A DNA stretch of 64,000 nucleotides from Selaginella moellendorffii (taxonomy: Eukaryota; Plantae; Lycopodiophyta). Where the stretch lies: positions 1,929,046 through 1,993,045 of the forward strand of contig NW_003314262.1 of NCBI RefSeq assembly GCF_000143415.4. The letters are read 5' to 3'. Position numbers and translations under genes: made by a program. A model generated the notes under the pieces. The model did not search any database, was not told where the DNA came from, and worked only from the letters and a program-made list of their open reading frames with translations. Positions 3,513 through 43,462 of the stretch are shown one piece after another; the first letter of the stretch is position 1, and each line of letters starts with the position of its first letter.

Positions 3513-3559
3513 AATCCAAGATAAAGTACGAGGACTGTGAACTGGTCATTATAAAAGAA

Positions 3560-12895: not shown

Positions 12896-13313
12896 GATGG
12901 CATGTATTTATTTAAAAATGTAACTTATTATGGCATGGGGTTCCATGCCATTGTATTAATATTAAAAGACAATTCTTTGAGAGGATTTGCATTATACTAG
13001 AAGTGTTACAGCATGTTATTGGAAGTCTACGAAGTTGTTTTATTAATAATGGGAAAGTAAAGATTGAATGGAGACTTGGGCTCCACCTAGACTCGGAGCA
13101 ACTGAGCCAATATTAAAAGGATGGAAAGAAATTGGACGACGATGACAAGGAGAAGAGAGAGGTGAAGTAGTGGCAGGGGGAGGAGAAGGGATTGAGTAGA
13201 CATTTCCTTGTTTAAAATAAAATGGCATGTGCCTCAATGCAGTTGAATTTTGTTATATTTATATACTATATAAAGGTTTGGAAACCTTATTTTACAAGTG
13301 GGATAATGACAAT

Positions 13314-13337
13314 TTCCACTTTAACGAAATAGAGCTT
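13314..13337 (-). repeat. Right terminal inverted repeat
   Basis: ttccactttaacgaaatagagctt followed by the TSD aaaa; a sub-terminal AAGTGGGA at 13296 can pair with it. Confidence 0.9.
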
Positions 13338-19699: not shown

Positions 19700-22600
19700 T
19701 CTAATTCGTTTCGTGTTTTTGTCCCTTCACTTCTTGAGTTATACACTTAAGAGTCACTCCATGCTTTTGTTCCTTTGCTCCTTAGCTCCATGCTTAGGAG
19801 TTTGGCACCATTATTTTGTTCACTAGCCTTTCTTCAGAGTGTTTTGACCATTGCAAATAGTTTCTTTTTTGTGGACATGCCAATTTCACTGAGCCTTATC
19901 CAACTTGTTTGGTCCACTCCCTATTGAAAGTAAGCACAAAAATGCTGCCTCCTGTGGACATTAATAAAGTAGGAGTCTTTAGCCTTACATTGCCCTACCT
20001 TTAAATCCTGGGCCTCCACTCTATATTGTTCTCTTCAGGCATTTGCCAATACCACTAAGTTCCTACCTTGTCTATGCAAGGGTACCACAAATTGATTAAA
20101 TTAATCCATCCCGAAGATCATATCAAATCCCACCATGTCTAACACGGTGAAATCCATGTCTACTTTCCATGTCTTTACTTTGACTTTTGTTTGTTAAAGT
20201 ACTTCATTGATGCTTTAGCTAACTTTAACAAACTTTATAGTCCTTGGTTCACTTAGCCACTACACCATTAATCTAGCTTGCCAAACTATGTTTACAGCCA
20301 CAAAATTATCCAAAGCATCTATGTCAATAAAGATCTAGCTACTTTCAAGCTTCCCTTGGAAGGCTAGTGGATATTGTGAATGACTTTCTACCAAAGTTGC
20401 TCGTGTAATAAGTAACTTTGAGTTAGGGATTGGATCATGTACCTTAGTTTAAACTTCACTTAACTTAATGGCTATATTGACTTTGGCTTTCTAATGGGCC
20501 TTCTAATGGCCTTCTTTGACTTTCGTTGCTAACAAACTTAGCCTTTTTATCAGGGTTTGTCCCTTTTCACCTAAATCCCCATATACTTGCTCGCTAGCTA
20601 TCAAATTTGCCTTTTCAAAATTCTGAAGACTCATTCTTAGAGAAACTCTTCCTAAATTTCCCTTTGCTATATGTCCCCTTTGGTTTGACTCCTTTGCTAA
20701 ATGTGGTCCCCAACTCTATTGTATTCCTCTTTCGCAAATTATCATTGAAATGCACCTTAATAGCTGCATCCAATGTTTCCTTGTAGTTGATCAAGTTTCA
20801 ACACATCACCTCACTTTGAGCCCATGTCTGTAAGCTTGATATGAAGGCATGGAATGCATCCATATTGCCCATTTCCGTAACAAGGATCCTCTTTGCTATA
20901 AACACATTTATATATTCTTGAATAGTTCTTATTTACTTTATCCTACTCAACTCATCCCTTAAATGCAGAGTAGCATTTGGAGGAACATAAGTTGCACGGA
21001 TCCTCACCTTCATCATTTCCCAAGCAGCCCTAAACCAGTCCTTCATTGGCCTCCATTATTCTCCACCAAACTTTAGCATTATCTGCTAAGTATGGTTTTG
21101 CTTATAGGACCTTTTCCAAGCTTGATAACCACAATGCTCTAAAATAATCCTTTATATTGTAAAACTAACCCTTCACCACCTTATATTCCTTCACTCCTTT
21201 GAAGATCAATGGGGGCTTTGGTTTATACTTGGGAACTACTTAAGGGACTGATTCTACTTTGGTTTATTCAACCTTATTCATTTCCGCCTCAGTTTTCACT
21301 AAAGGGTCCATGCCTTCTGCACTACCAATATCCGTAGTCTTTTACCTTTTCTTTCATTTCTCAATACACTTTAATTTACGTAAGAAGGTCTTTAGCAGGG
21401 CATTGGTCTGTGCTAATTATCCTTTTAAAATGTCCAATTAAGCCTTGGATGACCAAACTTCACCATTAGACTCTTGTTTGGAATTTTACTCATTGGAGTC
21501 AGCCTTATGCAAAGATTCCTTATCCATAGTTTCTTGTTCAATTGGAGAAGGATAGATGTAAATTGTTGGGAGATGACTAAAGTAGAGTGTAAGAGAACCA
21601 AGATAGAAATGGAATTTCTTGCAAAGCTAGAGCCCTAAGAAGAAGGCTCTAATACTAAACTGTAAGCCATAAATTTTTTCTTTCCAATTTGTTAATTTAC
21701 CTTGTCTATCCATTCACCATTACCTTAGCCTTTATTAAGTTCCCTTGCCAAAGTTTCCACCTATTATACTAACTCCTACTTGGTTCTACTTAGTTTCAGT
21801 TACTCACTACACAAGCAATGGTGTGTTAGCTATCCATCCATGGATTGCCAAATTTTCTTCGAATCCCACTCCCCGGGTTAGACTAGACTTAAAGTTCAAC
21901 TACACTCCCTACAAGCACAAACAACCAAGAATAACAAACCTCCAGGTTTTTAACATCCCTTGGTACAACAACACTTAATCATGAGACCCTCTAAATCCTA
22001 AACCTTGAGTGCATCTCTTACTTTAGGACTTTAGGGGGAAATATTGTGGCCTAATGGCCTAATATAGGTACCCCTACTCCCCACTTCCATCCTAAAAGAA
22101 AGGCCCAAGCTCCTAGGAAGAAACAAGGACCAATGAGCAGTATAGTACTCAAATGAACACCATTCCACATGAGCTGAGAGTACCGCAATCAATTTCCCTT
22201 CAAAGAGTGGGAGTTACTTTTGAGCACTTCCTTAGGTGGCCCCCTCCAACACCACTTGAGTCCATGCTCACTCCCACCCAAGTCCCCTAACCCCCAGCCT
22301 CAACCACAAGTTGGTTTGGAAGCACCACTAGAGAGTTCCTTCAAGACTAATTTTTGGATCTCACTATCTCTATTATATTTTTGGTATTAGTATTTGGACT
22401 TAATCTCTCAGACTTGATCTCGGACTCAGTCTTGGACTTGACCTCGGACTTGGTCTTGGACTCGATCTTGGACTCGGTCTCAGACCTGATCTTGGATCTC
22501 GGACTCGGTTTCAAACTTGGTCTCTAACTTGGTTTCAAACTTGGTCCCTGACTCGGTCTCAAACTCAGTTTTGAACTTGGTCTCAAACTCAGTCTTGAAC

Positions 22601-22798
22601 TTGGTCTCAAACTCAGTTTTAAACTTGGTCTCAGAATTGGTTTCAGACTTGATTTTAGACTCGGTATCAAAACTCGGTCTCAGAGTCGGTTTCAGACTCA
22701 ATCTCAAACTCGGTCTTATCCGATGAACTCTTTATAATTTCGGTCATGGTTTCAAAGATCCTTTAGTATATGACACCTCAAGGAGTTGATTCCTTACA
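19700..22798 (-). mobile_element. Decayed chromovirus-family copy: 5' LTR 21661-22798, then gag-protease remnants
   Basis: The LTR is the reverse complement of the 27901-29095 family; gag matches 29155-29570 ([12 protein letters not shown]); many stops. Confidence 0.75.
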
Positions 22799-24530: not shown

Positions 24531-25169
24531 ATGTCCGGCGAGCGCGACACCACTGCCATCGCGATCTCCTCGCACACATCAATCCTGCGGGACTGCGCCA
24601 GCACTCGAGATCTGACCGCCGCCAAGCAAGCGCAGTGGGAGATTGCCAGGGATGGATTCGGGGGCGACAGGTACCTTGGCAATCTTCTCGTCCAAGCCTA
24701 CGGCAAATGCCGTAGCGTCCGCGATGCCAGAGAGGTTTTCGATCGCATCCAGCACCGAATAATCTTCTCCTGGACGATCATGCTCGGCGCCTACGCTGAC
24801 AATGGCCACGGCCGCGAGGCCCTAGGCCTGTTTCACGAGATCCAGTCGCGTGGCATGGCGATCGACAATGTGACGCTCGTCAGTGCTCTCAAGGCGTGTG
24901 CCGTGGCCGGGGATCTGGAAGAGGGCCGCGGCATTCATGCCAATGCGCGGTCTCTAGGGTATGAATCCAAGATCATCGTGGCCACCGTGCTGGTGAGCAT
25001 GTATGGGAAGTGTGGGCATTTGGAGGAGGCCAAGGAGGTGTTTGCGACGCTGGTGGAGAGGAATTGCGTGTCCTGGAACGCGATGTTAGCAGCGTATGCC
25101 CAGAACGGGCATTGTGAGGAGGCTGTGAGGCTCTATCGTCTTATGTGCTTCAAGGGGATCAAGCCCGAT
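24531..25169 (+). pseudogene. PLS-class pentatricopeptide repeat (PPR) gene, N-terminal half
   Basis: PPR repeats (LVQAYGKC..AREVFDRI..FSWTIMLGAY; LVSMYGKCGHLEEAKEVF..VSWNAMLAAY); breaks off mid-repeat at GIKPD. Confidence 0.85.
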
Positions 25170-27274
25170 AGAGTCTAACGAAATGCAAAGTGCACTCTGC
25201 CACCAAGCATAATGCTACAAAAGAAAGGCACAAGGGTCACCTTTCTAGAAAAGTGCAACGGCCACTTTTCTTACACCAACTCCAGACTCTATACAACTCA
25301 ATTGCCTTATCCCCAAAAGTCAGCATTCCTTTTGGGTTGCATCATACAGACTACTTACTAAGGTTTAAGTTAACCGAAGTCAACCCCAACCCTTTCGCTA
25401 GTTTGTACTAGCTTACGAAAATAGAATGGTTTTCAAGCAAAGTGATCAACAGATCAGCCATTGGATAAGTCTAAGAAAATTTGTGGAAAATTTTCCATCC
25501 TAGAGAAAGAATGACTCTTGGTCTAGGAATACAAACTTCCAAGATTCAACCAACTTCTTCCTACTAACAACTTCACATAGGTTCACCTCAACACCAATTC
25601 TCATGACCCATAGTATGCTTAAGCATCGAACATCTTTTTGCCCATATTTCTGACATCCAACTCCGACATCTGCCAAAATGCAAAGTGATCATCTAAGGCT
25701 TGATCACGAAGACCATATCTTCGGATATTCACATTGCACTAACACTCTTCTTCAACCATTTTCAGGATTCAATTTGAAGCTAAAACACTAACAAGAAAAA
25801 TGACATGGAAAATCAAGCTCTAAGGAAAATTCCTCATCACTCAAAATAACAATGCCACTTCCACTAACACAAGTGCTAGCGATGTCAATGCCTCAACTAC
25901 ACACTTTCTCCATCCAATAATTTACTCCAAGTGTTAACGGACCAACTGACAAGCCATAGCAAGTGAATGCTACAACCCTTTTCCAACACCTTAGTGGGCA
26001 AACTCAAGGAAACAAGGAACCAACTTAAGCTTAGCATAATGAACCACCATCGAGAATCCAGTCAAAGCTACTACAATGCTATTTCGTGCAAGTAGACTAA
26101 TTTCTCCATCAACCACTTTGGGGTTGATCATCATTTAACCAAGCAACTTCGTAAACACATTGCTCATTATCACATGGATATGATATAGAAATCACAATGA
26201 CTTGATCATCAATTGAGCAACACCACGAGCAATGCCAATGTCATTACTTCAAAGGCTTATGTGAGTATCAAGTGCCAACTCAATTCGACAAAATGCAACA
26301 TAAATGCCACACTCCACTGATAGAGATTTACAACACTCAACATCACTAACTTTTGTTCACAACATGAACAAACTCATGCCACTCTCTATCCAACCAAACT
26401 CAAAACTAATCCAACATCAAGCTACTCAAGGAACAATAGCAAGGTTCCCCAGAAAATAATTGAGCATTGCAACCCAAGTCTTCCAATAGCAAGCTATCGC
26501 GAATGTGACTTTGGGTATCGAAAGTTACCTGTCAACCAGTCCTTACGGACACTCTTACCTTACTGCCACGATGGTAGGAGGTTGGTATTGCTGGACCCTT
26601 TATCAGTCCCTCTTGTGCTAGTGGAGTTAACACCTCGTTGCAAATCATCTCTCCAAGAAGAGAAAATGATTTACGTATTTGATCCTCTGTCCTCGATGAC
26701 TCTCTTTTCGATCTCATCTTTGACCAAACCTCAAGCTTGCTTTCGCACTGCCTTCAGTTCAATCCAAGAAAAGTTTATGAGAGAGCACGGCAATGATTAC
26801 TTGAACCAATAGACTAATCCCTACAGTCTTGGTTGATTCACTTGTAATCATGCCTAGGAAAGATCCACTAGCGCCATGCTAAACAGCTATGGACCAGCCT
26901 ATTTGCCACTCATAGCAAACTCAGGGAAGGTTTACTTTCACCCACGGTACATGGAACAACTTATGGAACCACTGATAGGCTAACATTAATCCTGCCCACT
27001 CAAAGTTTAATCACTAGTTGCTAATGTGCCTCACTCACGAGCCCAAGCGTAAACTCGTGCTAACAGAGCATCTCAAATCCATTCTATGAGCCCAAGAGAA
27101 AGCTCACATTATTAGGTACAAAAAGTAACCAAAACCATACCCAAGGAACGAATGTGAACCCTTTGCACCAAACATGTACCCACTTAGATCATCGTTTTCA
27201 TCTCTACATATGCAACGAGACTAGTTGCCCAATCTCATTGAATAGTACTCGCTGAGACTCATCCTCTGATACCA
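25170..27274 (-). mobile_element. Degenerate LTR-retrotransposon internal region (possibly Copia-like gag-PR) with tRNA-Met PBS
   Basis: Minus-strand TGGTATCAGAG at 27264-27274, next to an LTR end at 27277; only weak coding remnants. Confidence 0.45.
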
Positions 27275-27276
27275 AA

Positions 27277-27900
27277 TGTAGCACACCTTTATCCTATGGT
27301 AATTTACCATAGGATAACACCACGAAGTGGAACCTAAACCCTTTTTGTGCCACATGACAAATGCCATGTGTCACATGCCATGTGTCCATGCCACGTGTCC
27401 ATAGGAACCTGAGGTTCAGGTCCTTGGGCCACTGAACAAAGGAATGGTGCCAAACTCCCAAGCGTGGAGCCAAGGAGTGATGGAACCGAATCACGAAGCA
27501 ACTCCCCAGCATAAAGCCTAAGGAGCAAAGGGACAGGGGCCCGGAGCGACTTGGAACAGTCCTAGAGTAACCAGCATCCCAATGCCAGGACCAGCACACA
27601 AAACGGAGCCAAACGGAGTCTGGCGCTATTTCGGCATACCGGTGGCCTAACGCGAGGATATGGGTACTCCACCAACTAGCATGGAATGGAACTTGGGCTT
27701 AGACCCAAGCCAGACGCAGAACAAGGACAGACACGCAAGCGGGAGCTAGACTATGCCTCAGGTTGGTCAGCCATGCCCGACCTACCCACTATCCCTACTA
27801 TACATTTGGAACCCCCCACAGCCCCCCCCCCCCCCCCCCCCTTTGAGGAACACACGCTTTGGGCTTTCACCCCAAGCCTCCCTTAGTACCAGGAGTTAGT
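27277..27900 (-). repeat. LTR fragment (family C), interrupted by the chromovirus LTR at 27901
   Basis: Begins tgta beside the PBS; 27600-27900 is homologous (inverted) to 41220-41520 and 19370-19650. Confidence 0.6.
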
Positions 27901-29095
27901 TGTAAGGAACCGACTCCCCGAGATGTCGTAGGCTAAAGGATCCCCAAAAGCTTGACCGAAATGACAAAGAGTTCATCAGATGGGACCAAGTTGAGGATCG
28001 AGTCCAAGACCGACTCTAGGACCGAGTTCGAGATAGAGTCCGGAATCGAGTCCGAGACCGACTCGGGGACCGAGTTCGAGTCCGAGTTCGAGACCGAGTT
28101 CGAGACGGAGTCCGAGATCCGAAATCGGGTCTGAGACCGAGTCCGAGGTCGAGTCCGAGGTCGGGTCCGAGATCGGGTCCGAGATCGAGTCTGAGATCGG
28201 GTCCGAGATCGAGTCCGAGATCGAGTCCGAGACCGAAGCCGAAGTTGGATCCGAAATCGGGTCCGAGATTGAGCCAGAGACTAAGTCCAAGTACTAATAC
28301 GGGTCAAGGGGTGAAAGCCCAAAGCGTGCGTCTCCCAGGGGGGGGGGGGGGGGGGGGGGCCTTCCGGGGGTTCCCAAAATTTTGTAGGGATAGTGAGGTC
28401 CAGGAACCAGTCTTGAAGGAACTCTCCAGTGGTGCTTCCAAACTGACTTGAGGTTGAGACTGGGGCCGAGGGGCCTTGGGTGGGAGTGAGCATGGGCCTG
28501 AGTGGTGCCGGAGGGGCCACCTAGGGAAGTGCTCAAGAGCAGCTCCCACTCCCGAAAGGGAAACCGACTGCGGTGCTCCTGGCTCAGGTGGAGTGGTACC
28601 CCACTTGAGTACCTTGAGGCTCATTGGTCCTCGCCCTTCCTAGGGGCTTGGGCCTTCCCTTTGGGATGGAAGTGGGGGGGTAGAGGTACCCATACCGGGC
28701 CGTTAGGCCACGGTGTTTCGCCCCGACGTCCCGAAACAAGTGCTGCACCCAAGGCTTGGGATTTAGAGGGTCCCATGATCAAGTCTTGTGGCACCTTGGG
28801 GTGTTAGGAATCTGGAGGCTTGGTGTGCTTGGCTGCTTGTGCCTGCGGGGAGTGTAGCTGAACCTTAAGTCCAGTCTAACCCGGGGAGGGGGATTGAGAG
28901 AGATTTGGGAATCCGTAGATGGATGGCTAACACTCCGTTGCTCATGCAGTGAGTAGCTGAAACCAAGTAGGACCAAGTAGGAGCTAGTACCATAGGTGAG
29001 AACCTTGGCGAGGGAACTTAGCACAAGCCAAGGCAGAGTTGGTCGGATAGTCGAGGTAAGCTGGCAAATTGGAAAGGAAAAATTTGTGGCTTACA
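27901..29095 (+). repeat. 5' LTR (family A) with GAGTCC/GAGATC hexamer array and poly-G tract
   Basis: tgtaaggaacc...ggcttaca; homologous LTRs at 21661-22798, 47643-48394 and 50208-58382 (interrupted). Confidence 0.85.
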
Positions 29096-29098
29096 ATT

Positions 29099-29110
29099 TG
29101 GTATCGGAGC
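29099..29110 (+). promoter_or_regulatory. Primer-binding site (initiator tRNA-Met type)
   Basis: TGGTATCGGAGC, 3 nt after the LTR end. Confidence 0.8.
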
Positions 29111-31465
29111 CTCTTCCTCAGTTCTAGCGAAGGATAAAGGCGGATTGCTGGGAGATGGCAAGGGCGGGACGTAAGCGAACCCAGGCGGAGACGGAACCTC
29201 CTCCGGAGCTGGAGCCTCCGGTCGAACAAGAGGCTATGGATGAGGAATCCTTGCATGAGGAGGACTCCAGTGAGGCAACTTCCAAACAAGAGTCCGGTGG
29301 TGAGGTTCGGTCGTCCAAGGCTCGATTGGACGTTCTAGAAGGACAATTGGCACAGACAAATGCTCTGCTAGAGACTCTCGTACGCAAGCTAAAGCGTGAT
29401 GGGAAGCAGAAGAAAAAGTGAAAGACTGCGGATGCTGGCAGCGCAGAAGGTGCGGACCCTTCGGCAGGGACTGAGGCAAAACCAGACAAGGTCGAACAGA
29501 CCGAAGTGGAATCAGTCCCTCAGGCAGTTCCCAAATACAAACCGAAGCCCCCACCAGTCTTCAAGGGAGTGAACAAAGGGTATGTTAGGTTGAGCAAGTC
29601 GCCATATGGGGCGCCGGTGTTATTTGTGAAAAAGAAAGATGGATCTATGCGCATGTGCATAGACTACCGGTTGCTCAACAAGTATACAAAGAAGAACAAA
29701 TACCCTTTGCCAAGGATTGAGGACCTATTCGATAGGTTGGGAAAGGCAAAATACTTCTCGAGGATTGACCTAAGGTCAGGATACTACCAGATCAGGGTAG
29801 CCGAGGAAGATGTCGAGAAGACAACCTGTCGAACGAGGTATGGGAGCTTTGAGTTTCTGGTGATGCCCTTCGGGCTATGTAATGCGCCGGCAACGTTTTC
29901 GGCTCTAATGAACCACATCTTTGTACCCTATCTGGATCACTTCATGGTCGTCTATATCGACGACATCCTGATCTATAGCGAGACGCTAGAGGAGCATGCC
30001 GAACACTTGGCGAAGGTGTTTGAGAAACTAAGGGAACACAAGCTGTATGCTAAAGAGAGCAAATGTGACTTTGCTCAACAAGAGGTAAAGTTTCTCGGGC
30101 ATGTGATGGGCCAGGACAGGCTCAAGGTGGACCCGGAGAAGGTCCAAGCGATCCAGGAATGGGAGCGACCAGCCAATGTACACGAGTTGAGGGCATTCCT
30201 GGGGCTATGCAACTACTATCGAAAGTTTATCAGACACTATTCGAGAGTAGCCCTGCCCTTAACGGACCAAACAGGAAAAGGGAAGATAGTGTGGACAGCG
30301 GAATGCGAGGCGGCATTTGTCCACCTCAAAGGGAAGTTGAGGAAGGCTCCCGTATTGGCATTACCAGACTTTGGTAAGGACTTTGAGGTAGAAACGGACG
30401 CTTCGGACTTTGTGTTGGACGTAGTTTTGAAGCAAGATAACCATCCAGTAGCGTTCTTCTCGAAGAAGTTGGAGAAGGCTCAAAGGAAGTGGCCTGCCCA
30501 CGAAAAGGAACTATTTGTGGTGGTCAAGGTGCTCAAGGAGTGGTGACACTACCTTGGGAGACACTTCAAGGTTTACACGGACAATGTGGCAACGAAACAC
30601 TTCTTGTCACAGCCCGACCTGAGAGGGAAACAGGGTCAATGGGCCAATGCCTTGGCCGAGTTTGATTGCGAGATTTTGTACAAGCCTGGGAAGAGCAACA
30701 TCGTGGTAGATGTGTTGAGTCGAAAAGCGAGCTTGAAGTTGGCGATATCCAATGCGACAGCAACCTTTTGGGATGATGTGCGGACAACATATGAGAATGA
30801 TGGTCTAGCACAAGAAGTGTTGCTGAGGAATCTAAAGGCACGGGAAGCTCACCAAAGAGGTGAGCTGCCAACGGAAGAGAAAACGGGCTATGCAGAACGC
30901 AACGAACTCATCTATTACAAGCGAACGAGGGTGTATGTTCCAGAAGGGGAACTAAGGAAGGTAGCCTTAGAAGAGTGTCATGACGGACCTCTTGTGGGAC
31001 ACGGCGGAGTGCCCAAGATGATGGGCTTACTCAAGAGGAAGTACCATTGGCCAGATATGGCTAAGGACGTCCAAGACTATGTAAAGACATGTCCAACATG
31101 TCAGCAGGTAAAAGCTGTGACTAAGGCTAGTGGGGGCTTGTTGCAAAGCATCCCAATTCCAGATCGCCCGTGGAAATGTCTTACGATGGACTTCATCACG
31201 GGACTCCCCCCAAGCGAGGGGTTTGATGCGATATTCGTGGTGGTGGACCGATTTTCGAAAATGGCACACTTCATACCCACCACAATGGAGGTGGATGCGG
31301 AAGGTGTGGCAAAGCTGTTCTTCAAACAAGTGGTTCGAGTGCGGGGAAGACCGGAAGAGATCATCTCAGATCGAGATAAGATCTTCACCAGTAGCTTCTG
31401 GAGGACTCTCCTGGAACAGTATCGCACCAAGTTGAAATTCAGCACAGCCTATCACCCACAGACAG

Positions 31466-31511
31466 GTATGGGGTATTGATTCAAGTTGTTGGCACTAACA
31501 CTTCTTGACAG
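31466..31511 (+). other. Spliceosomal intron (46 nt) within the integrase HPQT-DGQTE motif
   Basis: GTATGG...CACTAAC (branch point)...TTCTTGACAG; excision restores AYHPQTDGQTERVN exactly. Confidence 0.85.
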
Positions 31512-31929
31512 ACGGACAAACAGAAAGGGTGAATAGGCAGCTGGAGGATTATTTGCGATGCTATGTCTCGGGAGACCAGACCGATTGGGTAAGTCATTTG
31601 GGACTTGCGGAGATGTGTTATAACAACTCACCACATTTGAGTATCGGGGTGAGTTCATGGGAAGTCATCAATGGGCGAGCTATTGAAGGTCCTGTGGAAC
31701 TCGGCATGGCCGAGTATCATGGAGAGTTGCCCGCAGTGGAGGCATTCACGGTGGAAAGACTCAGCATTTGGAATCTAGTGAGGGATTCCTTGGAACGGGC
31801 TCAACAAAGGCAAACCAAATATGCGAACCAGAAGCGTTGGGATGTAGAGTTCCAAGCTGGGGAGAAGATGTGGCTGAACACCAAAAACCTCAAACTACCA
31901 AGTGAGATCAGCCGAAAGTTGACCCAAAG

Positions 31930-31981
31930 GTAAAGATGCATGTATTCCTATAAATGAATTGATCTTGAGTTCCTTAAGCAG
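31930..31981 (+). other. Spliceosomal intron (52 nt) within the integrase GPY motif region
   Basis: GTAAAG...TTAAGCAG; excision restores KLTQRFAGPY exactly. Confidence 0.85.
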
Positions 31982-32330
31982 GTTCGCGGGGCCTTACGAG
32001 ATTGAGGCACAAATCGGTAAAGTGGCTTACCGACTCCGACTTCCTCGAGAGATGGGGAAGATGCACCCAGTGTTCCACGTGAACTTACTCAAGCCGTACT
32101 TTGAGGATTTGCTTCGCAAGGACCAAGTGAGACCTTTACCTGAGGTTATCCAAGGGGAAGAGGAATACGAAGTCGAGGCCATCCTCAATGCGCGCAAGAG
32201 CAAGCGACAAGGACGCGAGGTGAGAGAGTTCCATGTGAAGTGGAAAGGATTTCCACACTGCGAAGCAACATGGGAACCGGAGGAGAACCTAGCGAACGCG
32301 CGAGATCTAGTGGAGGAATTTCTGCAAGGC

Positions 32331-33372
32331 AGAACTCTATGTACTTATGCAAAATTCAATTAAAAATATCAATTTGCAAAGTTGAGCAAGTGGCATATGT
32401 TGGGACCCGAAGGCGCGCCAAAGGTAAAATTTCTTGGACATATAGTCGGTGGTGGCGTAATTGAGGTTGATCCAAAGAAAGTGGAAGCGGTGAAGTCCTG
32501 GGAAGTCCCGACCACTGTATCAGATGTTCATTCTTTTCTTGGTTTCGCGGGATACTATTGCAAGTTTGTCCGCAATTTTGCAAGAATTGCTCTTCCGTTG
32601 ACTGAGTTGACGAAGAGTAGTATTCCGTTTCATTGGACACCAGCTTGCCAGCGTGCTTTTGTACGGTTGAAGGAGATCTTGACTACGGTTCCTGTTCTCA
32701 GGATCCCAGATCTTGATAAACCCTTCAAAGTGAATTGTGATGCATCTGGCTATGCTATTGGTGTTGTATTGCAGCAAGATTGTGACAAAGCGGTTGGTGT
32801 TACGCTAAGGCAACTTGGTTGTCCTGTTACATTCTATTCTAAGAAATTGGATGAAACTCAACGAAGATGGCCAATGCATGAGAAAGAGATAGTGTCGGCC
32901 TTGGAACACTGGAGACACTACTTAGGTGGACACACCAAGGTTTATATAGATAGTAACATATTGAGCTACTTTGCTATGTAGCCTAAGCTTACACTGAAGC
33001 AGGCTCATTGGCAAGAGAAGCTTGCTAGATATAATATTGAAATCATATATAAACCTGGAAAAGACAATATTGTTCCAAATGCATTGAGTGGTCGAGCTCA
33101 GTTCTAGGCAATATTGGCAATCAGTTCAGACTGGTTGGAGGATGTTCGGGTTTTATACGGAAGTGATCCATTGGCAAAGACAATCTTGCACCATACGGAG
33201 TTGTTGAAGCAGAACCCTGGTAGCGACGGCGAAAGCTGTTAGTCGAACCAATGCGAAACTTCACTTTTCAATTCAGGATGGGCTTATATTCTATAAGCAA
33301 GAAAGATTGTATCTTCCCTCTAAGGATCTGTAGCAGTTGTTTCTACGGGAACATCATGATGTTCTAGCAGTA
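32331..33372 (+). pseudogene. RT-thumb/RNase H fragment of a different Ty3/Gypsy element
   Basis: VKFLGHIV..VDPKKVEAVKSW, NCDASGYAIG, FYSKKLDETQRRWP; abuts the chromodomain. Confidence 0.8.
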
Positions 33373-33636
33373 GGTATCGAAAGATACTTGTTGGCCAGTC
33401 CTTATGGACACTCTTTCCTTACTGCCATGACGGCAAAAGGTCGGTACAGTTAGTTCCTTTTATCGTTCCCACTTGAGCTAGTTGAGAAATTGGTCAATGA
33501 CCGTGTACTTAAATCAGATAAACATAAGGTAGGAACCCTATGTGTTTCTTGCTGAGCATACTCAGCCTGGTTTGAGAAACTCTTATCATTGTTTTGCACT
33601 TGCTAATATCAAGAAGCCCCACGATATTGAGAATAG

Positions 33637-35306
33637 TGTGAGACACAAAATCCCTAGGCCCCAAAGTGGAGCCGGAAAGGGTGCCACGTGGTAGTGGCCG
33701 AAGCGAAAGCCCAAACGAGTGTAACACGTTTGGACTAAAAGCTCTGACTTGGAAGGTCGAGAGCGGGAGTGGAACTCCCAACAAAGTGCTCAAGGAGCGA
33801 GCACAAAGCGAGCAATAAGCAAGGCTCCAAAAAGGGACCCAAAAAGGACCAACACATGACACGTGGAAGAGTCCGAGATAGACCCGAGATGGAGTCCGAG
33901 GTGGACCGAGACGGAGTCCGAGATGGACCCGAGATGGAGTCCGAGATGGAGTCCGAGATGGACCCGAGATGGAGTCCGAGATGGAGTCCGAGGTGGACCG
34001 AGATGGAGTCCGAGATGGACCCGAGACAGAGTCCGAGATGGACCCGAGACAGAGTCCGAGATGGAGTCCGAGATGGACCGAGATGGAGTTCGAGATGGAG
34101 TCTGAGATGGAGTCCGAGAAGGACCCGAGATGGAGTCTGAGGTCGAGACCGAGACCGGGACCGAGACCGAGACCGAGACCAGGACCGAGACTGAGACCGA
34201 GGCCAAGGCTGAGACCAAGCCCGAGCCTGAGTCCAAGTCCGAGTCCGAGTCCGAGTCCGAGTCCGAGTCCGAGTCCGAGTTCGAGTCTGAGAGGGTGAAA
34301 GCCCAAAGCGTTCGTCTCCCAGACCCTGGGGGGTTTGGTGAGCTCCAAAAGTATAGTAAGGGGGAGGAATGCAGTGGAGCCAGTGTGGCCAGGAAAGGCC
34401 AGTGTGGCCAGGAAAGGCCAGTTTGGCCCAGGAAGGGCCCGACCCAGTGTTGGGTGATGAACTGACCACTGGGAAGTCCAAGACTAGAGTGAATACGGAC
34501 CGACAAGCGGGGTAGCTTGGTGAAGTGTTCAAGAGCCGGCTCTAGTTCCCCCGGGAGATCGACTAGCCGATGCTCCCAGTCCAAGTGTGGGTGGCACTAC
34601 CTACTTGGATACCAGGCGTGGCTCAACGGAACCTCGCTCTAAGCCCATGGCTAGAGCACCTAAAGGCGGAAGGCGAGGAGAGTACCCACGGGGCTCGCGT
34701 AGGCCCACGGTGTTTCGAAATGTTGTCCCGGAGTCCCAAATGGAGAAAGGAGGAAGAGCAGTCCTCTAGTGTGGTGATTAAGGATACAGTCACATGGTGA
34801 GGAAGTCCCGGAGGACCATGGGACTTAGTGGTCGGGCCTGTGGGCCTTGATCGAGTGGCAGTGTTGGCGAACATGGCCATGGACAGAAAAGGGACTTGGT
34901 AGGAACTGACAAAGGGATATTGGGGAAGGCTATTCCCCATGTCTGTGGGCATCCTAAGGATGCTAAAGAGTGGATCTAGGTTGACCACTCGTGGACGGAT
35001 GGCCCAGTCTTGGAGAGACGGGATTGTGATGCAAGTGGTATTGGACCACTAGTGCGGCAAAGGTGAATGGGCATGGCCTTAGCGTAACGGGCCGATATGT
35101 CAGTGGTGCCTTTGGGTGTCGGTCTTGGGACCGGACACGTGGAGCACTTGGACTAAGTGCAAGCGATGAGTGGCATGGATGCCATTCTTGGGCTAGCAAG
35201 CCCCAAGTCCTGAATTGGACTTAAGGGGGTTGTGAATGAGACTCCTCCAAGCGGTCGAAGGTGTGGTTAAGTGACTAAAGTAGAATGGAAAAATTAGTCG
35301 CTTACA
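33637..35306 (+). repeat. 5' LTR (family B) with GAGTCCGAGATG tandem array
   Basis: Nearly identical to 39337-40969 except for array length. Confidence 0.9.
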
Positions 35307-38300
35307 ACTTGGTATCGGAGCTGTTCCTTAGTCCGACTTTTATTGGTGCTCTAGTATATCACTATTGATATTGGCATCGAAAGGTCCTAGGAGTGGGCTT
35401 ATCCTTGAGGAGTAGCACGTCGAGAGGACATGGCTCTCCACTCGAGTTCATGCATGAACTTGGGCACGATGTGGTGGATAGAAAAGGGGCCAGTAAGGGA
35501 ACGACTTTGGGATCTTGGGAACAGTATATGGTTTTCCTTAGAGAGTTGAGGATGTGATCCAGATGAGCATTTGACTTAGCAAACTGGCTAATGTAGTTGT
35601 GGTAAACAACTATAGTTGGGATCACGGGAAAGATAAAGACTCCAAAGCAATAAAGGAGTCACAAGATTATCCTCATATAGTTGAGGTTGGTGCTCATGAA
35701 TGTGAGACCAGAAGTAATGACCGTGGGAGGTCAAATACGGAAGAAGACTCTAGTCCTTGAAATGGTAGCTAGGGCTGCCTTTAATAAATGCTGGAACAAC
35801 CCAAGGAGTTGGGGGGTGTACTTAGAGATGAGTTGGTACTCTCATCACATGGACAAGTAGTCCTAAGGGGCAAAGGTTGCCCCAGAGAACAAAATCAAGT
35901 GTCAGAGTAATATTTGTGAAAATAGTCCTTGTGAGTGAGGACATGAATGCAAGAAGTGTATTCTAGTGAGCTAGTGCCCGACAAGTAGAACCTTACGGGT
36001 CTGTGGATTAACCAAGTCCAAAACTGCTGGATGACTCAAGTAGAGTCAAGGGATGGTCCTAAAGGACTAATGGAAGCATTTGGTCTGAGGTGTGTTGTAC
36101 CCCACGAAGGATGGGGGGGACCATAGGATCCAAGGATAAGAACAGAGGGTATCTCATCAATGGCAAAATGTGCCATACTAAAGTCGTGGGAAAGGTGTTC
36201 CCAAAAGAAAACAACTTTGATACAAAGTTGTGTATGATCTTTATGGTGCAGTGCTAACGGATGGTTAGCATAAGAAAGAGCGGTGTTGGTCTTGGCAAAG
36301 ACTTAGACACAAAGAAGAAGTGTCATAGAGGTAGGCTCGTGGAGCTGATGGTGTGGAGACACCAAAGGTGCCAAGGTGTGATACCTTGAGGCTATGTTGG
36401 TGGGTTCATGAGAACCCCTTGCCAAGGGAATCCCAATGGAAATAGGAATGGCATAGCCTAAGCTGCAGAGCATGCAGTTAGAGTATGGTGACCCAGATAA
36501 TGGTGGAGGTGTGGAAGCACCAGCAATGAGTTGTAAGACTTGACAACTATGAGGCAACTAAGCGAGAGGTGCAAAATAATTGGTTAAGCGGGTAGAAGGT
36601 AGCTACCCAAGCCTTCTTAATGGCATAGGGAAGTTGGATATACCCTTACGGGGATAAGTTGCTTATGTTGCGATATAGTAAGTCAATGTCATAAAAGGAT
36701 CAATGTCATAAAAGGAAATACTCATTGTCAAGGAAGCCATCATTGGGACACCCGAACACTCTAGAACACCAGGAGGTGGTGTTTGATGTCGCGAGGGCAA
36801 TAGATGAGGCCCAAGGGACTAAGTCTCTAGCAAATGATGGATAGAAGGTGCTATCCAAATGTCCAAGGTGGCGAAGACAGGAGAAGACTGTCTACTGGAA
36901 TTGGACAAAGCCAAAAATAGAATTTTGGCAAGATTAGCGATAGGCATGTAAGGGCCCATAAGCAACAACGTAATCCCGGTGTGTGGGATTATAAGGTGAG
37001 CATGCCCAAGATTGAGGAACCACTCCCTAGGCTATTGGGTAAGTTCATCCCTAAGAATACTTGCTAAGGCATGATAGAAAGTGCAAAGCTATCCTCCTAG
37101 TCGGGAGGAGAATGACCGAAGGAAAGGTGTGAAGCCAAAAGAAAGTAGTAAGGGGATAGAACCAAACCATAGGAATCGAAGGGCATAACCAAGGGTAGTT
37201 ATGTCAGTTGAGAGTGGAGAATCAAGTGGGGGCTCGAGGGTGTTGTTGCTAGCAACCGTGATGCCATGGAAAGTCTAAAATATGGAATAGTCCATATTAG
37301 ACTATATGGCAACTAGAAAGCTTGCGAAAAGGGAAGCCTTAGCAAGCTAAGGGACAGAGTTCCTTCAAGGTTCCCAAAGACGATTCTAGGTAGCTTAGTA
37401 CCTAGAAAGGCCAAGTGTAAATGGTTCAAGGAAAGCGTGAAATCAGAGTGGCACAGCAAAAGCGTGGTCTTGAAGCTTGCCATGAGGCAAAGCTATCAAG
37501 GTTAGGGAAATAGTTCCCGAGTGTTCAAAGAGAGGGCTTTGAACGAAAGTCGATGATCAAGGGCTTTCACGCTTGTGCAGGAACCATGTTACAGTGGTCG
37601 GAAGACTTGCCAAGTGAGATTGGCAAGTTAGGGGAACAAATACCCTAGTTGAAAGTGATAACTTCAAAAGGGGTGGGCCATGGGGCCAAGTATGGAGGAG
37701 TCCATGCATGATCACAGACTTGTCAAGTGAGAGGACTTGGCAGTGTGGAGGAATTAGGTTCCTAAGCTGTGATCTATAGCGCGCTTTGAGTAAAAGTTGG
37801 TGCACCAGTGTGGGGAGTCACGCCAGGCATCCTGGGTGATGCCGTCCATAGATGCATATACGGAGGTTGGGTTCGAGTCCCGACCCTCTAGTGCTTGGGT
37901 TCGAGTCCCACATCACTAGGGCGTGGTGATGGTTTGGAATATGAGGACACTCATTTTTCGGTGGTCATGGACTCTCAATGAGGAGATTGGCTTGGGCACA
38001 CCGCCAAGCAGGGGATGCCCCGGAGTCGTGATGCACGGTTAGATTACTTAGAGTGAAAGCTTAGCATATCTAACTTGAACACTTTGGTGCAAAAGGCACC
38101 AAGGACGTGGTGAATGAGATGGGGACACCCAGTCTCAGTTGCTATGAATCCTTGGCCGGAAGGGCTAGCTTGGGCGCACCACCAAGTGTGGGGGATGCCC
38201 CCGGGGTCATAGTCAACAACTTATTAAGGTCTTTGTTTGGATTAAGGAATATAATTCTTAGTTCAAAGTGTTGATTTGAACTATTGATAAAGGTGTGGCT

Positions 38301-39336
38301 TGGTCAAGGTGACTAAGTGGGAAGGACACCTAAGGGAAATGAACTACTACAATACAATGGTATTATGAGTTCAAGAAAATAGTCTCCAGAGACAGGCCCA
38401 TGGGTGGGTCACAAGGTTGGGCTAGGAAGAGAGCCTAGAACAGTGGGGAGACTTACTAGGGGTGAACACCCTAGTCTGGGCAAAGTAGATCCTTTGCTAT
38501 GGAACCAAAAGAATACCTCAAGGAGGGAGGTAATGATCCTATGTTGCTTGGTGCAACAATCCAAGGATAGGAGCAAAAGATGAGTGCCCAAGATAGGGCC
38601 GTGGAATCCATTGGAAAGAATCCAAGTGGCAAAGTTAGCCAAGGAACACTAATGTGTTTGATGCTAACGGATTGCGGAAAAAGAAGTGGACTTCCAAGGA
38701 TGGATTCCCAAGTGCTCCAGTTTGGCAAAGGAAAGGCTCCAAGTGAGGGAGCAACTAAGTAGCCAAAAGATAGGGCCGTGGACAGCCCTAGCACAAATAA
38801 TGATAAATGGAACGTAATGCCAATGGTGGCACAAAAATAGAAAAGAGGATGAGGGTGCCTCAAGTAGAGAACTTCCTAGGAGGGGAAGTGGAGTTGCACA
38901 AAATGTGCAAAGCAAGGTGTCGGAGACACCTAGGAAATTGACTCCAAAAAGTCAAGAGTAAACGTTCCAAAGTGCAAAGGTAGATCAATGGAATCTGTGA
39001 CTACTCAAAAATGAGTAGTGGAATTGAGTTAGAGAGGGTGTCTCTAACGGGTTTAGTAAGAACTGAACCAATAAAAAGGAGCAAACCACCCCAGGTGGTC
39101 AAGTGAGTCTCTAAGTTGGAGAGACTATCCTCCTTAGAGGATGGGCAAAGCATGGTGAGCCTTTGGTGTCGAACCATTGACGAATATGGAGAAGGCATGG
39201 TGAGCCTTCAATGTCAAACCATTGACAAATATTGGCTAGGGGCCAAGGATGGAAATGGTAACACGTGCGGGTGTTACTTTATAAAATGGTTTACCGTTCG
39301 ATGAGGACATCGAACTTCGTCTATGGGTGGTGGAGT

Positions 39337-40969
39337 TGTGAGACACAAAATCCCTAGGCCCCAAAGTGGAGCCGGAAAGGGTGCCACGTGGTAGTGGCCG
39401 AAGCGAAAGCCCAAACGAGTGTAACACATTTGGACTAAAAGCTCTGACTTGGAAGGTCGAGAGCGAGAGTGGAACTCCCAACAAAGTGCTCAAGGAGCGA
39501 GCACGAAGCGAGCAATAAGCAAGGCTCCAAAAAGGGACCCAAAAAGGACCAACACATGACACGTGGAAGAGTCCGAGATGGACCCGAGATGGAGTTCGAG
39601 ATGGAGTCCGAGGTGGACCGAGACGGAGTCCGAGATGGACCTGAGATGGAGTCCGAGATGGAGTCCGAGATGGACTCGAAATGGAGTCCGAGATGGAGTC
39701 CGAGGTGGACCGAGACGGAGTCCGAGATGGACCAAGACGGAGTCCGAGATGGAGTCCGAGATGGAGTCCGAGATGGATTCCGAGATGGACCGAGATGGAG
39801 TCCAAGAAGGACCCGAGATGGAGTCCGAGGTCGAGACCAAGACCGGGACTGAGACTGAGACCGAGACCGGGACCGAGACCGAGACCGAGGCCAAGGCTGA
39901 GACCAAGCCCGAGCCCGAGTCCGAGTCTGAGTCCGAGTCCGAGTCCGAGTCCAAGTCCGAGTTTGAGTCTGAGAGGGTGAAAGCCCAAAGCGTTCGTCTC
40001 CCAGACCCTAGGGGGTTTGGTGAGCTCCAAAAGTATAGTAAGGGGGAGGACTACAGTGGAGCCAGTTTGGCCAGAAAAGGCCAGTTTGGCCCAGGAAGGG
40101 CCTGACCCAGTGTTGGGTGATGAACTAACCACTGGGAAGTCCAAGACTAGAGTGAATATGGACCGACAAGCGGGGTAGCTTGGTGAAGTGTTCAAGAGCC
40201 GGCTTTAGTTCCTCCGGGAGATCGACTGGCCGATGCTCCCAGTCCAAGTGTGGGTGGCACTACCTACTTGGATACCAGGCGTGGCTCAATAGAACCTTGC
40301 TCTAAGCCCATGGCTAGAGCACCTAAAGGCGGAAGGCGGGGAGAGTACCCACGGGGCTCGCATAGGCCCACGGTGTTTCGAAATGTTGTCCCGGAGTCCC
40401 AAATGGAGAAAGGAGGAAGAGCAGTTCTCTAGTGTGGTGACTAAGGATACAGTCACATGGTGAGGAAGTCCCGGAGGACCATGGGACTTAGTGGTCGGGC
40501 CTGTGAGCCTTGATCGAGTGGCAGTGTTGGCGAACATGGCCATGGACAGAAAAGGGACTTGGTAGGAACTGACAAAGGGATATTGGGGAAGGCTATTCCC
40601 CATGTCTGTGGGCATCCTAAGGATGCTAAAGAGTGGATCTGGGTTGACCACTCGTGGACGGATGGCCCAGTCTTGGAGAGACGGGATTGTGATGCAAGTG
40701 GTATTGGACCACTAGTGCGGCAAAGGTGAATGGGCATGGCCTTAGCGTAACGGGCCGATATGTCAGTGGTGCCTTTGGGTGTCGGTCTTGGGACCGGACA
40801 TGTGGAGCACTTGGATTAAGTGCAAGTGATGAGTGGCATGGATGCTATTCTTGGGCTAGCAAGCCCCAAGTCCTGAATTGGACTTAAGGGGGTTGTGAAT
40901 GAGACTCCTCCAAGCGGTCGAAGGTGTGGTTAAGTGACTAAAGTAGAATGGAAAAATTAGTCGCTTACA
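39337..40969 (+). repeat. 3' LTR (family B)
   Basis: Homologous to the 5' LTR; followed by TSD aatag. Confidence 0.9.
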
Positions 40970-43462
40970 AATAGTCCCTCAATATTTGCTAAATGATAGT
41001 TTACCGTGTCTGCCAAACACCCTTGCTATCATGCTCTTTGTGTTAGTCTCATTTTGGTCCCAAATGCTATTTATAGAAAGTGTCTAGATTCGCTCATTTG
41101 GCTCATCTACAAAATGTAGAAATCAGCCTGAACACAATGGTGTTCATCCCGTGTCCAAATTCGCAATCTAGGGACATTCTATATTTAGTAAGTTTCAGAC
41201 TTGTCCTAGAGACTAACTCCTGGTACTAAAGGAAGCTTGGGGTGAAAGCCCAAAGCATGTGTCCCTCAAGGGGGAGGGAGGGGTGGCCGCTGTGGGGGGT
41301 TCCAAATGATAGTAGAGATAGTGGTTGGATTGCATATCTGACTATCTGAGATATTAGTTTGGTTCCTACTGGGCTGTGTCGCTCCTTATTCTGCATCTGG
41401 CTTGGGTCTAAGCCCAAGATCCACGCTGCTCTAGTTGGTGGGGTACCCTCCTCCTCACGTTAGGCCACCGGTATGCCAAAATTGTGCCAAACTCCATTTG
41501 ACACCATTTTGTGTGTAGGTGCTAGATACAGAGAGTTGGTGCTCGTGGGATTATATTGGACCCTTGTTTTGTAGCGCAATGGGTTTGGAGTGCTATTTGC
41601 TCCAATACCAACTGTAGCACACTTTATTTTTCACCCTTTAAACTAACTGGAAAATGGGCAATTGCTTGATGAGAAAGCCTTTAGTGGCTATTTTATCCCT
41701 ATTTATCCCCTAAGGTTCGAAAGATCCATGGTGACAGTATATCCAAATCTCATCCCATGATCATATGCGCACACTAGGAAGTTTTGAGTATGATGAACAA
41801 CTATAAACTATGTTTAATCAAGAAGTTATTTATATGGTTTATGCATCCAATCATCTCACACAGTGCAAGCTTCTTAAGATGTCAAATAGTAGTAAAATTG
41901 GATGTAGAAGATGCCACTAATAGATAACTAGTGTTGGTGGAGTGCTCATATTTGAGCCAAGTCTATGGAGCCATAAGTTAAAATAATTTGGAAGGATTGG
42001 GAGAATAGTGTTCATAAAAGTTTGATAGTTTAGAAGTCCAGAAAAGTATAATGAGATATAGGGATTTAAGGAAAGTTATTGCTATCAAAGTTCAGGTTTA
42101 GATACATATTACTAGGAGTGAAAAGTATAATTTCTTCTATTAGTTTCTGTCTACAATAGGATCAAAGCTTAAATATAGTGTCTAAAGTGACTCAGGTGCA
42201 AGTTAGGTATATAAAGAAATATTTAAAATGTCTTTTTAACCTATTTTGTCATATATATATCTTTTGATTTATCCATACTATTATTGAGATCTTTAGTTTC
42301 TTTAGTACTATATATCCTTACTCTAATGTTGTTGTTGCTCATTCTTATTCCATCACTAAGCCCATTTGTCTCTTTTAGCCCCTCTTTCAAAAAAAATATT
42401 GAAGCATTAGGATATAAGGAGAAAATAAGAAAAATGGAAGAGAAAAAAAAGTGAGAAAGAAAAAACTGAATATTAAAAAAAAGCACTTGTTTAATAACAA
42501 TTGATAAAAAAGAAAGACAATTTATGCTAGGAGTGTATATGGTTTTCAACTTTTACCCTATAGTAATTTACTATAAGATAACTATAAAGTGAAACTTTAA
42601 CCTTTAAACACATGGGCCAAAAATAGTTGAGTTTTAGGGTTTTAAGCCAGGATAAAACTAAACTCCCAAATATATAGTTAAGGAGTAAAGGAATCTGAGC
42701 ACAAAATGACTCTTGAACATACAGCCTGAATGAGCATAGAATGACATTGGAATAATTCTAATACTAGCATACAAAATATACCTAAACGAAATCAAGTGTT
42801 ATTTCAGCATGTCTCTAGGACAATTATAAAAAATTACTAAATATGGAATAATGCTAAACATAGGAATAATGAGGCATGATAGCAATAATATGTGGTGGAC
42901 ACAGTAAACTGTAGTGACTAAAGCTCAATATATAAAGATTCTTATTAAATTAATGTAAGACAAAATAAAAAAGAACTAAAAGCTAAGTTGAGTATACTCA
43001 GCAAGAAACACATAGGAGTTTTTACTTTATATTTATCTAACCAAGTACAAATTTTAAGCCCAATTTATTAATACTTTAAATAAGAGGGACTAAAAAAAAA
43101 CCAACAATATAGATTCCCTGCCGTTACCATTGTGGCAGAGAGAATATCTATTGCTGACAAATAACTTTTGATACTTGTTTAAGGTGTGCACCTTGGTATA
43201 AAGTGTGTTTACATTCTGAAATGTTTGGGCTCACTATAGAGAAGAAGAAAAATAATAGGCAGCTTTAGGTAGATCCAAACTAGAAGATGTTACAACTAGT
43301 ACTAGGTACTACTTACCAATCAATGATCTTAACATCAATGGATCACACAGCTTGGAGTTGATGAAAGAAGGATGGAAGAACCACCTTTTCGGGAGTGATG
43401 GCATTAATCTCTCAGCAGAAAATCTCACTAACAAAAACGAGAACCAAGCGATGAGCTAGCTT

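What the first reader, a model, noticed from the sequence alone, without database searches (positions are those of the whole stretch)
31466..31981. Two canonical spliceosomal introns inside the integrase of a chromovirus LTR retrotransposon
Inserts of 46 and 52 nt have GT donors and YAG acceptors (the first also a CTAAC branch point). Removing them restores HPQT|DGQTE and KLTQR|FAGPY to the base. Both break the frame and contain stops. A retroelement copied through RNA should lose such introns; described cases (Ogre, Copia gag splicing) lie around gag/PR/RT, not within INT. Either the family packages unspliced RNA and makes integrase only by splicing, or introns were gained after insertion. 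Two precise post-insertion gains in one dead copy seem unlikely, which favours the first option (inference).
Basis: partly seen in the sequence, partly recalled or inferred. Interest (0 to 1): 0.8.

Follow-up and report, generated by a model that had tools for sequence, protein, structure and literature searches.

The report
Introns inside a retrotransposon integrase
A high-copy plant jumping gene, likely from a spikemoss, carries two tiny introns inside its integrase gene and a third across its copying-primer site, all three cut out exactly in likely-RNA sequence data but kept in DNA, so it likely makes integrase only from spliced RNA and copies itself only from unspliced RNA, although elements that copy through RNA normally lose introns.

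Summary
Confirmed. Inserts at 31466-31511 (46 nt) and 31930-31981 (52 nt) are GT-AG introns. Intron 1 is skipped exactly in 4 of 8 runs laid (three studies; one read from a recorded RNA run) and intron 2 in 3. In DNA run X1, 0 of 15,403 laid contigs show either skip, so the introns are family-wide. None of 73 measurable distant relatives has an insert at site 1, so they were gained. Intron 1 separates the catalytic Glu of D,D(35)E, so unspliced RNA cannot encode a complete integrase. A third, 66-nt intron (29056-29121) removes the LTR end and primer-binding site in one run; it likely explains why spliced RNA is not copied back. The element fits the description of SM1-Galahad of Selaginella moellendorffii, whose published three-ORF layout matches these introns; that paper never mentions splicing. 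This copy itself is broken. Not shown: RNA status of three runs, coupling of the three splices on one molecule, intact copies with target-site duplications. The scan noted this family earlier on other pieces of this genome; the primer-site lead came from such a note and was tested here.

The parts
27900..29095 (+). 5' LTR, 1196 nt, TGTAAG...CTTACA ends, with a 12-nt tandem array and a 22-nt poly-G tract (28338-28359)
   Evidence: related LTRs elsewhere in the window; 3 X5 contigs leave the stretch at 29095-29098 with other sequence, as expected of LTR ends at other insertion sites (table 7)
29056..29121 (+). 66-nt GT-AG leader intron spanning the LTR 3' end and the primer-binding site
   Evidence: skipped exactly in one X16 contig with 255 nt on the shorter side; donor matches CAG|GTAAGT at 7 of 9; GT and AG kept in both other related copies in the window; no branch-point motif found
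29099..29111 (+). primer-binding site, tRNA-Met type
   Evidence: sequence; tRNA-Met type is recalled, and fits the 13-bp PBS described for SM1-Galahad
29155..29574 (+). gag start, with an in-frame stop at 29419-29421; followed by an internal deletion of the rest of gag and protease in this copy
   Evidence: contigs of X16, X18 and X5 carry other sequence at 29569/29574 (table 7); no Pfam hit
29570..30660 (+). reverse transcriptase and RNase H, with a stop at 30544-30546 that X16, X18 and X5 do not share
   Evidence: Pfam RVT_1 E=3.5e-40, RT_RNaseH_2 E=4.4e-25; table 3
30949..31465 (+). integrase exon 1: H2C2 zinc finger and catalytic core with both Asp residues, ending HPQT
   Evidence: Pfam Integrase_H2C2 E=4.5e-21, rve E=2.6e-11
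31466..31511 (+). intron 1, 46 nt, phase 1, splits the Asp codon of HPQT-D-GQTE
   Evidence: skipped in X15, X23, X16, X17; retained in X1, X5, X18
31512..31929 (+). integrase exon 2, with the Glu of D,D(35)E at 31523-31525
   Evidence: 35 residues between D and E; aligns to Ty3-G Gag-Pol 7q5b residues 1269-1385, E=0.0058; 775 relatives at E<=1e-10
31930..31981 (+). intron 2, 52 nt, between KLTQR and FAGPY
   Evidence: skipped in X15, X16, X17; retained in X1 and in an X5 contig spanning 31839-32170 at depth 56
31982..32338 (+). integrase exon 3: GPY/SH3 region and chromodomain
   Evidence: Pfam SH3_Tf2-1 E=9.1e-16, Chromo E=1.7e-16
32340..33375 (+). fragment of a different gypsy RT-RNase H that follows this copy; no 3' LTR or polypurine tract of this copy was seen
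   Evidence: about 44% protein identity to the element's own RT-RH; no second LTR match after 32340 that closes this copy

Best explanation
This is a broken copy of a high-copy Ty3/gypsy chromovirus, likely SM1-Galahad of the spikemoss Selaginella moellendorffii, whose genomic copies carry two short spliceosomal introns inside integrase and a third across the primer-binding site, and which likely splits its RNA into a spliced pool that makes protein and an unspliced pool that is copied into DNA. Shown: all three segments are removed exactly in likely-RNA contigs; DNA copies keep the integrase introns; read unspliced, the frame stops before the catalytic Glu. Inferred: a complete integrase with its chromodomain can only come from RNA with introns 1 and 2 removed. 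Inferred: RNA that has met the spliceosome also loses the LTR end and the primer-binding site, so reverse transcription cannot start on it. Inferred: only unspliced RNA is therefore copied, new insertions inherit the introns, and introns gained inside pol can persist.
For: Exact skips of intron 1 in X15, X16, X17 and X23 (studies P2, P3, P6), of intron 2 in X15, X16 and X17, and of the 66-nt leader intron in X16. X15 and X16 each carry both integrase skips on one contig. DNA run X1: 0 of 15,403 laid contigs show either skip, although single-contig deletions at depth 109-237 with sides of 23-53 nt were listed. X5: 0 of 329. Of 80 distant metagenome loci, 73 were measurable at site 1: 71 have exactly one codon there, one has 2 nt, one has 4 nt, none has an insert. 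At site 2, none of 53 measurable loci has a ~52-nt insert. D-to-E spacing is 35 across intron 1. Family-polymorphic differences downstream of the intron-1 stop are 7 synonymous of 8, against about 1/3 expected (p=0.002); copy-private ones are 5 of 14. The published SM1-Galahad, built from several copies, has an ORF ending in core integrase plus ORFs of 316 and 309 bp; here they are 321 and 312 nt.
Against: X15-X18 are RNA by the tool's guess only. The recorded RNA runs gave 5 and 2 reads, with one junction read in all. The leader splice was seen in 1 of 4 runs laid over it (X17 had almost no cover there; X18 and X5 are unspliced) and on a different contig from the integrase splices, so coupling on one molecule is not shown. 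X18 shows no skip at any of the three sites; it could be unspliced RNA or DNA. No assembled family copy with paired LTRs and a target-site duplication was seen. The 2012 paper found no intact copy and no TSD, with LTR identity 90.2%. Unitig data can miss rare intron-less copies. The selection test rests on 40 of 176 table rows chosen by the tool, and on a 90% cut-off of mine.
Confidence: 0.62

Rival explanations
1. The introns are real and needed, but unspliced RNA is selected by something other than loss of the primer site, such as a separate promoter and RNA pool as in BARE1, a packaging signal, or export of unspliced RNA. The leader splice would then be incidental.
For: BARE1 keeps an intron by copying only uncapped, unspliced transcripts from a second TATA box (PMC3735527 passages). 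Leader and integrase splices were not seen on one contig, and the leader splice was seen in one run only.
Against: The leader intron removes exactly the LTR end plus the PBS, and its GT and AG are kept in 3 of 3 related window copies aligned.
Confidence: 0.2
2. The family is non-autonomous for integrase. It is moved in trans by an intron-less relative such as SM2-Galahad, and the introns are tolerated passengers whose splicing gives no needed protein.
For: SM2-Galahad is a close, high-copy relative with a single 4731-bp ORF and an intact copy, while no intact SM1-Galahad copy was found. Expression in the recorded RNA runs is very low.
Against: Both splices restore the frame to the base, and family-polymorphic changes in exons 2-3 are 7 of 8 synonymous. 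Mobilisation in trans would still need unspliced RNA as template.
Confidence: 0.1
3. The intron-bearing copies multiplied at the DNA level (segmental duplication or carriage inside another element), so intron retention needs no special RNA handling; or active copies are intron-less and were missed.
For: The window is a nest of rearranged, deleted elements and holds a 5-kb inverted duplication of another element. No TSD was seen here or in the 2012 paper. No assembly census was possible.
Against: X5 contigs leave the LTR end into differing flanks. No intron-less DNA junction was listed among 15,403 X1 contigs. Variation among copies looks protein-constrained.
Confidence: 0.06
4. The spliced contigs are intron-less DNA copies in runs wrongly guessed as RNA.
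For: X15-X17 are 'RNA?' by guess.
Against: One read of a recorded RNA-seq run has the 46-nt skip. The deep DNA run lists none. A DNA copy lacking its own LTR end and PBS by an exact GT-AG cut would be hard to make by reverse transcription.
Confidence: 0.02

Closest known systems
SM1-Galahad of Selaginella moellendorffii (Novikov, Smyshlyaev, Novikova 2012, PMC3350952; seen: passages, section 2.1 whole, Table 1)
   Same: LTR over 1 kb with TG..CA and a poly-G tract, 13-bp tRNA-Met PBS, hundreds of copies about 95% alike, ORF ending in core integrase followed by two short ORFs, the last with a chromodomain.
   Different: The paper treats the pieces as separate ORFs; 'intron' and 'splic' occur 0 times in its main text. 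Identity by sequence was not tested; its supplement was not opened.
BARE1 of barley, Ty1/copia (PMC3735527; seen: abstract and passages)
   Same: A short GT-AG intron kept in genomic copies; separate RNA pools for translation and copying; spliced form absent from DNA.
   Different: The BARE1 splice lies at the start of protease and makes Gag only; Pol comes from unspliced RNA. Here splicing is needed to complete integrase, and the candidate block is loss of the PBS, not of the R region.
EVD and Arabidopsis Ty1/copia shGAG splicing (PMC5580714; seen: passages)
   Same: Introns retained in genomic RNA, with spliced and unspliced isoforms.
   Different: Splice sites cluster around protease, and the unspliced RNA encodes the whole Gag-Pol. 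The paper found no conserved splicing in Arabidopsis Ty3/gypsy.
Ogre elements (as summarised in PMC6317226 and PMC3735527; seen: passages; the primary paper PMC2596294 was not held)
   Same: Ty3/gypsy element in which splicing of a subset of transcripts is needed to translate the whole polyprotein.
   Different: [quoted passage not shown]
Foamy virus pol expression (PMC5035957; seen: passages)
   Same: Pol is made from a spliced mRNA whose donor lies in the 5' LTR R region, upstream of the PBS.
   Different: One long splice to a separate pol ORF; no small introns inside pol; an infectious retrovirus with env.
Penelope-like elements (PMC8557442; seen: passages)
   Same: Retroelements that keep spliceosomal introns after retrotransposition.
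   Different: Different order of element, with no LTR-PBS-integrase cycle; the paper says the significance of retention is unknown.

Membership tests
Ty3/gypsy chromovirus | RT-RNase H-integrase-chromodomain order behind an LTR and PBS | tested here: met
   Pfam hits in that order; LTR and PBS
Ty3/gypsy chromovirus | paired LTRs, polypurine tract and TSD | tested here: inconclusive
   this copy is cut at about 32340 and has no 3' LTR; no other full copy was available
SM1-Galahad | LTR over 1 kb, TG..CA, poly-G of 11-25 nt | tested here: met
   1196 nt against 1076/1146 published; poly-G 22 nt
SM1-Galahad | ORF ends in core integrase, then ORFs of 316 and 309 bp, the last with a chromodomain | tested here: met
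   stop at 31477-31479; ATG ORFs of 321 and 312 nt, close but not equal
SM1-Galahad | high copy number, about 95% alike | tested here: met
   15,403 X1 contigs laid on 1341 nt; X16 contig differs at 48 of 1083 nt; summed depth is not a copy number
SM1-Galahad | over 80% nucleotide identity to the published element | not testable with these tools
   the published sequence was not at hand
SM1-Galahad | CCHC and protease domains | tested here: inconclusive
   deleted in this copy (loose ends at 29569/29574)
Galadriel clade | RT-RH-INT phylogeny | not tested
   no tree with named references; best homologs are 36-52% identical plant and algal polyproteins
U2-type spliceosomal intron | GT-AG ends | tested here: met
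   all three introns
U2-type spliceosomal intron | exact removal in RNA | tested here: met
   one read from a recorded RNA run, the rest from runs guessed to be RNA
U2-type spliceosomal intron | branch point and lariat | tested here: inconclusive
   CTAAC at -17 in intron 1, weak TTGAT in intron 2, none in the leader intron; lariats not testable
Ginger/GingerRoot DNA transposon | integrase-like transposase between terminal inverted repeats, with no RT | tested here: not met
   RT, RNase H, LTR and PBS precede the integrase; GingerRoot features from PMC6839031 passages
Domesticated single-copy integrase gene | single intact copy | tested here: not met
   high copy number; this copy has two stops, a deletion and a truncation

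The most novel reading that the evidence does not exclude
An LTR retrotransposon that splices out its own primer-binding site, making every spliced RNA a dead end for reverse transcription, and has thereby turned pol into a safe harbour for intron gain: two host-type introns gained inside integrase now put the catalytic step of transposition under the control of the host spliceosome.
Probability: 0.55. Interest if true: 0.85.

Novelty: new variant of a known kind. Interest (0 to 1): 0.75.

Why it matters
Copying through RNA is the standard route of intron loss, so an LTR element that gained and kept two introns inside its integrase is an exception that needs a mechanism. A primer-removing intron offers a simple, testable one. 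It would give a rule for when retroelements can keep introns, a splicing switch on transposition that host or element could tune, and two lineage-specific intron gains with an intron-less sister family for comparison. It also warns that ORF-based annotation can call such families defective, as the three-ORF description of SM1-Galahad suggests.

Tried and rejected
No whole genome was held, and the assembly index gave no answer, so no census of assembled copies, TSDs or other Selaginella species was made. No RNA holder was listed on record; 8 of 24 listed runs were laid. X24 gave 2 reads and no junction. Protein searches found no close family member: best-segment identities were at most 52-53% among the 120 listed in each, no hit, and at most 48% among the 150 listed. 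The first motif count on the 80 loci matched only 16 and was replaced; there 7 loci were not measurable at site 1 and 27 at site 2, and one site-2 value of 36 nt comes from extrapolating over 30 unaligned residues. Alternative acceptors (31523, 31527, 31969, 31978 and others) were rejected because the observed skips are 46 and 52 nt. Rejected: a Ginger-type DNA transposon, a domesticated gene, and gain after insertion in this copy only. Literature searches that found no account of introns inside an LTR-retrotransposon integrase or of a PBS-removing intron: in an open-access library only. The 5 supplementary files held for PMC6317226 had no hits but total only 17,418 characters, so its element tables may not have been seen. 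The supplement of PMC3350952 was not opened. PMC13192763 was seen as abstract and outline only. PMC2596294 was not held. No figure for host intron length was found; PMC6157073 only says the S. moellendorffii distribution groups with fungi.

Full report
Observation. The window holds a Ty3/gypsy element on the + strand from 27900 to about 32340. Pfam finds RT, RNase H, the integrase zinc finger and core, an SH3-type region and a chromodomain in that order. The integrase is broken into three frames by inserts at 31466-31511 (46 nt) and 31930-31981 (52 nt). Both begin GT and end CAG, both are 3n+1 long and hold stops, and both are poorer in GC (0.41, 0.33) than the exons (0.49-0.53). Intron 1 has CTAAC at -17; intron 2 has only a weak TTGAT. 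In 109 of 120 homologous proteins a single Asp stands where insert 1 sits. Counting across the break gives 35 residues between the second Asp and the Glu at 31523-31525. This is the D,D(35)E spacing of integrases (established knowledge), so the unspliced frame stops before the catalytic Glu.

Splicing. Eight of 24 listed runs were laid. A contig of X15 and a contig of X16 (both study P2) each skip exactly 46 and 52 nt with GT..AG ends. X17 (P3) shows both skips, on separate contigs. One of 5 reads from recorded RNA run X23 (P6) has the 46-nt skip; X24 gave 2 reads and no junction. X18 (P4) runs unspliced through intron 1. X15-X18 are RNA by the tool's guess only.

DNA copies. In DNA run X1, 15,403 contigs were laid on 31000-32340 and none shows either skip, while single-contig deletions at depth 109-237 were listed. 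Summed depth over intron 2 (763,000-855,000) is in the range of the exons. The dip over intron 1 (469,000) is matched by a dip in exon 2 (496,000), and falls where X5 and X18 differ from this copy at four listed places and one added letter inside the intron. X5, a different sample of unknown kind, shows no skip among 329 contigs and spans intron 2 at depth 56. X1 may be the sample behind the window, and unitigs can miss rare forms, so a few intron-less copies are not excluded.

Gain, not ancestry. Among 80 distant relatives from metagenome contigs (44-55% protein identity), 73 were measurable at site 1 and none has an insert: 71 have one codon, one has 2 nt and one 4 nt. At site 2, 53 were measurable and none has a ~52-nt insert. 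The sister family SM2-Galahad is described with one unbroken ORF. Both introns have short repeats at their ends (GACAG, AGGT), which would fit gain by insertion at a staggered cut; this is inference, and part of each repeat is expected from splice-site preference.

Selection. Of 40 difference rows shown (176 in all), those polymorphic in the family are 7 of 8 synonymous in exons 2-3 and 9 of 10 in exon 1, against about one third for random transitions (p=0.002 and 0.0003). Those private to this copy are 5 of 14 and 5 of 8. Sequence downstream of the intron-1 stop therefore looks protein-constrained, as expected if it is translated after splicing. The sample is small and the 90% cut-off is mine.

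The leader intron. One X16 contig skips 29056-29121 (66 nt, GT..AG), which removes the last 40 nt of the LTR and the PBS at 29099-29111 and leaves the gag ATG at 29155. The donor and acceptor dinucleotides are kept in the two other related copies in the window. X18 and X5 show no such skip, and X17 has almost no cover there. The leader and integrase splices lie on different X16 contigs, so their coupling is not shown.

Identity. Novikov et al. 2012 (PMC3350952; section 2.1 read whole, Table 1 and passages) describe SM1-Galahad of Selaginella moellendorffii: hundreds of copies about 95% alike, LTRs of 1076/1146 bp with poly-G of 11-25 nt, a 13-bp Met PBS, an ORF that ends in core integrase and two further ORFs of 316 and 309 bp. 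Here the LTR is 1196 nt, the poly-G 22 nt, and the ATG ORFs 321 and 312 nt. Their element was reconstructed from several copies, so its three-ORF layout is independent evidence that the inserts are typical of the family. The paper does not use the words intron or splicing. Host and family are inferred from this match, not from a sequence comparison. This copy is dead: stops at 29419 and 30544, loss of most of gag and protease at about 29570, and truncation at about 32340.

Mechanism. Shown: three GT-AG segments removed exactly in likely-RNA data, the two in integrase kept in DNA, and a catalytic Glu behind intron 1. Inferred: spliced RNA makes the full polyprotein but lacks the PBS, so it cannot prime reverse transcription; unspliced RNA keeps the PBS, is copied, and passes on the introns (0.62). 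Rivals: selection of unspliced RNA by a separate promoter, export or packaging route (0.2); mobilisation in trans with passenger introns (0.1); DNA-level amplification or missed intron-less masters (0.06); mislabelled DNA runs (0.02).

Comparison. Separate pools for translation and copying are known in BARE1. Copia splicing makes Gag. Ogre splices between ORFs to complete its polyprotein. Foamy viruses make Pol from an RNA spliced from a donor upstream of the PBS. Penelope-like elements keep introns for unknown reasons. None of the passages read has small introns inside integrase motifs, and eight searches of an open-access library found no such account; subscription papers and unseen supplements could hold one. 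It works like the BARE1 and foamy-virus split of RNA roles, it is likely a member of SM1-Galahad, and its intron layout is a new variant.

Limits. No assembly could be searched, so no copy with paired LTRs and a TSD was examined and no other Selaginella species was checked. The scan has noted the same family on other pieces of this genome (8 notes shown of 20 fitting); these are unreviewed and are not counted as support.

Verdict. Real, family-wide introns inside a retrotransposon integrase, with a plausible and testable primer-removal mechanism. Interest 0.75; new variant of a known kind.

Noticed in passing
window 33637-40970, 50491-58109: A second LTR family (LTRs about 1.67 kb, 93.5% alike at 33637-35307 and 39337-40970) with about 4 kb inside and no pol-like frame found, likely non-autonomous. 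Its PBS at 35310 is also followed by a pyrimidine run and AG, so it may have a similar primer-spanning intron.
   Followed up: no
window 5964-8288 (-): Two adjacent frames, the longer 571 aa with Pfam DUF7869 (E=5e-42); looks like a DNA-transposon transposase (recalled resemblance).
   Followed up: partly
window 8244-13337 and 58557-63510: A 5-kb segment present twice in inverted orientation, 97% identical, with a 615-aa frame that has no Pfam hit.
   Followed up: partly
window 24531-25178 (+) and 43463-45922 (-): Pentatricopeptide-repeat genes; the second is an uninterrupted 819-aa frame with a weak E motif.
   Followed up: partly
window 21190-22798 (-) and 47642-50492 (-): Two more decayed relatives of the element (LTR, gag start, part of RT; 70-82% identical). 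Neither reaches the integrase, and the second also appears to lack the gag-protease middle.
   Followed up: partly
window 2733-4553 (-): A distant, broken gypsy RT-integrase, about 30% identical to the studied element.
   Followed up: no
window 27427-27900 (-): The element's 5' LTR abuts an oppositely oriented piece of a related LTR, which suggests nested insertion.
   Followed up: no
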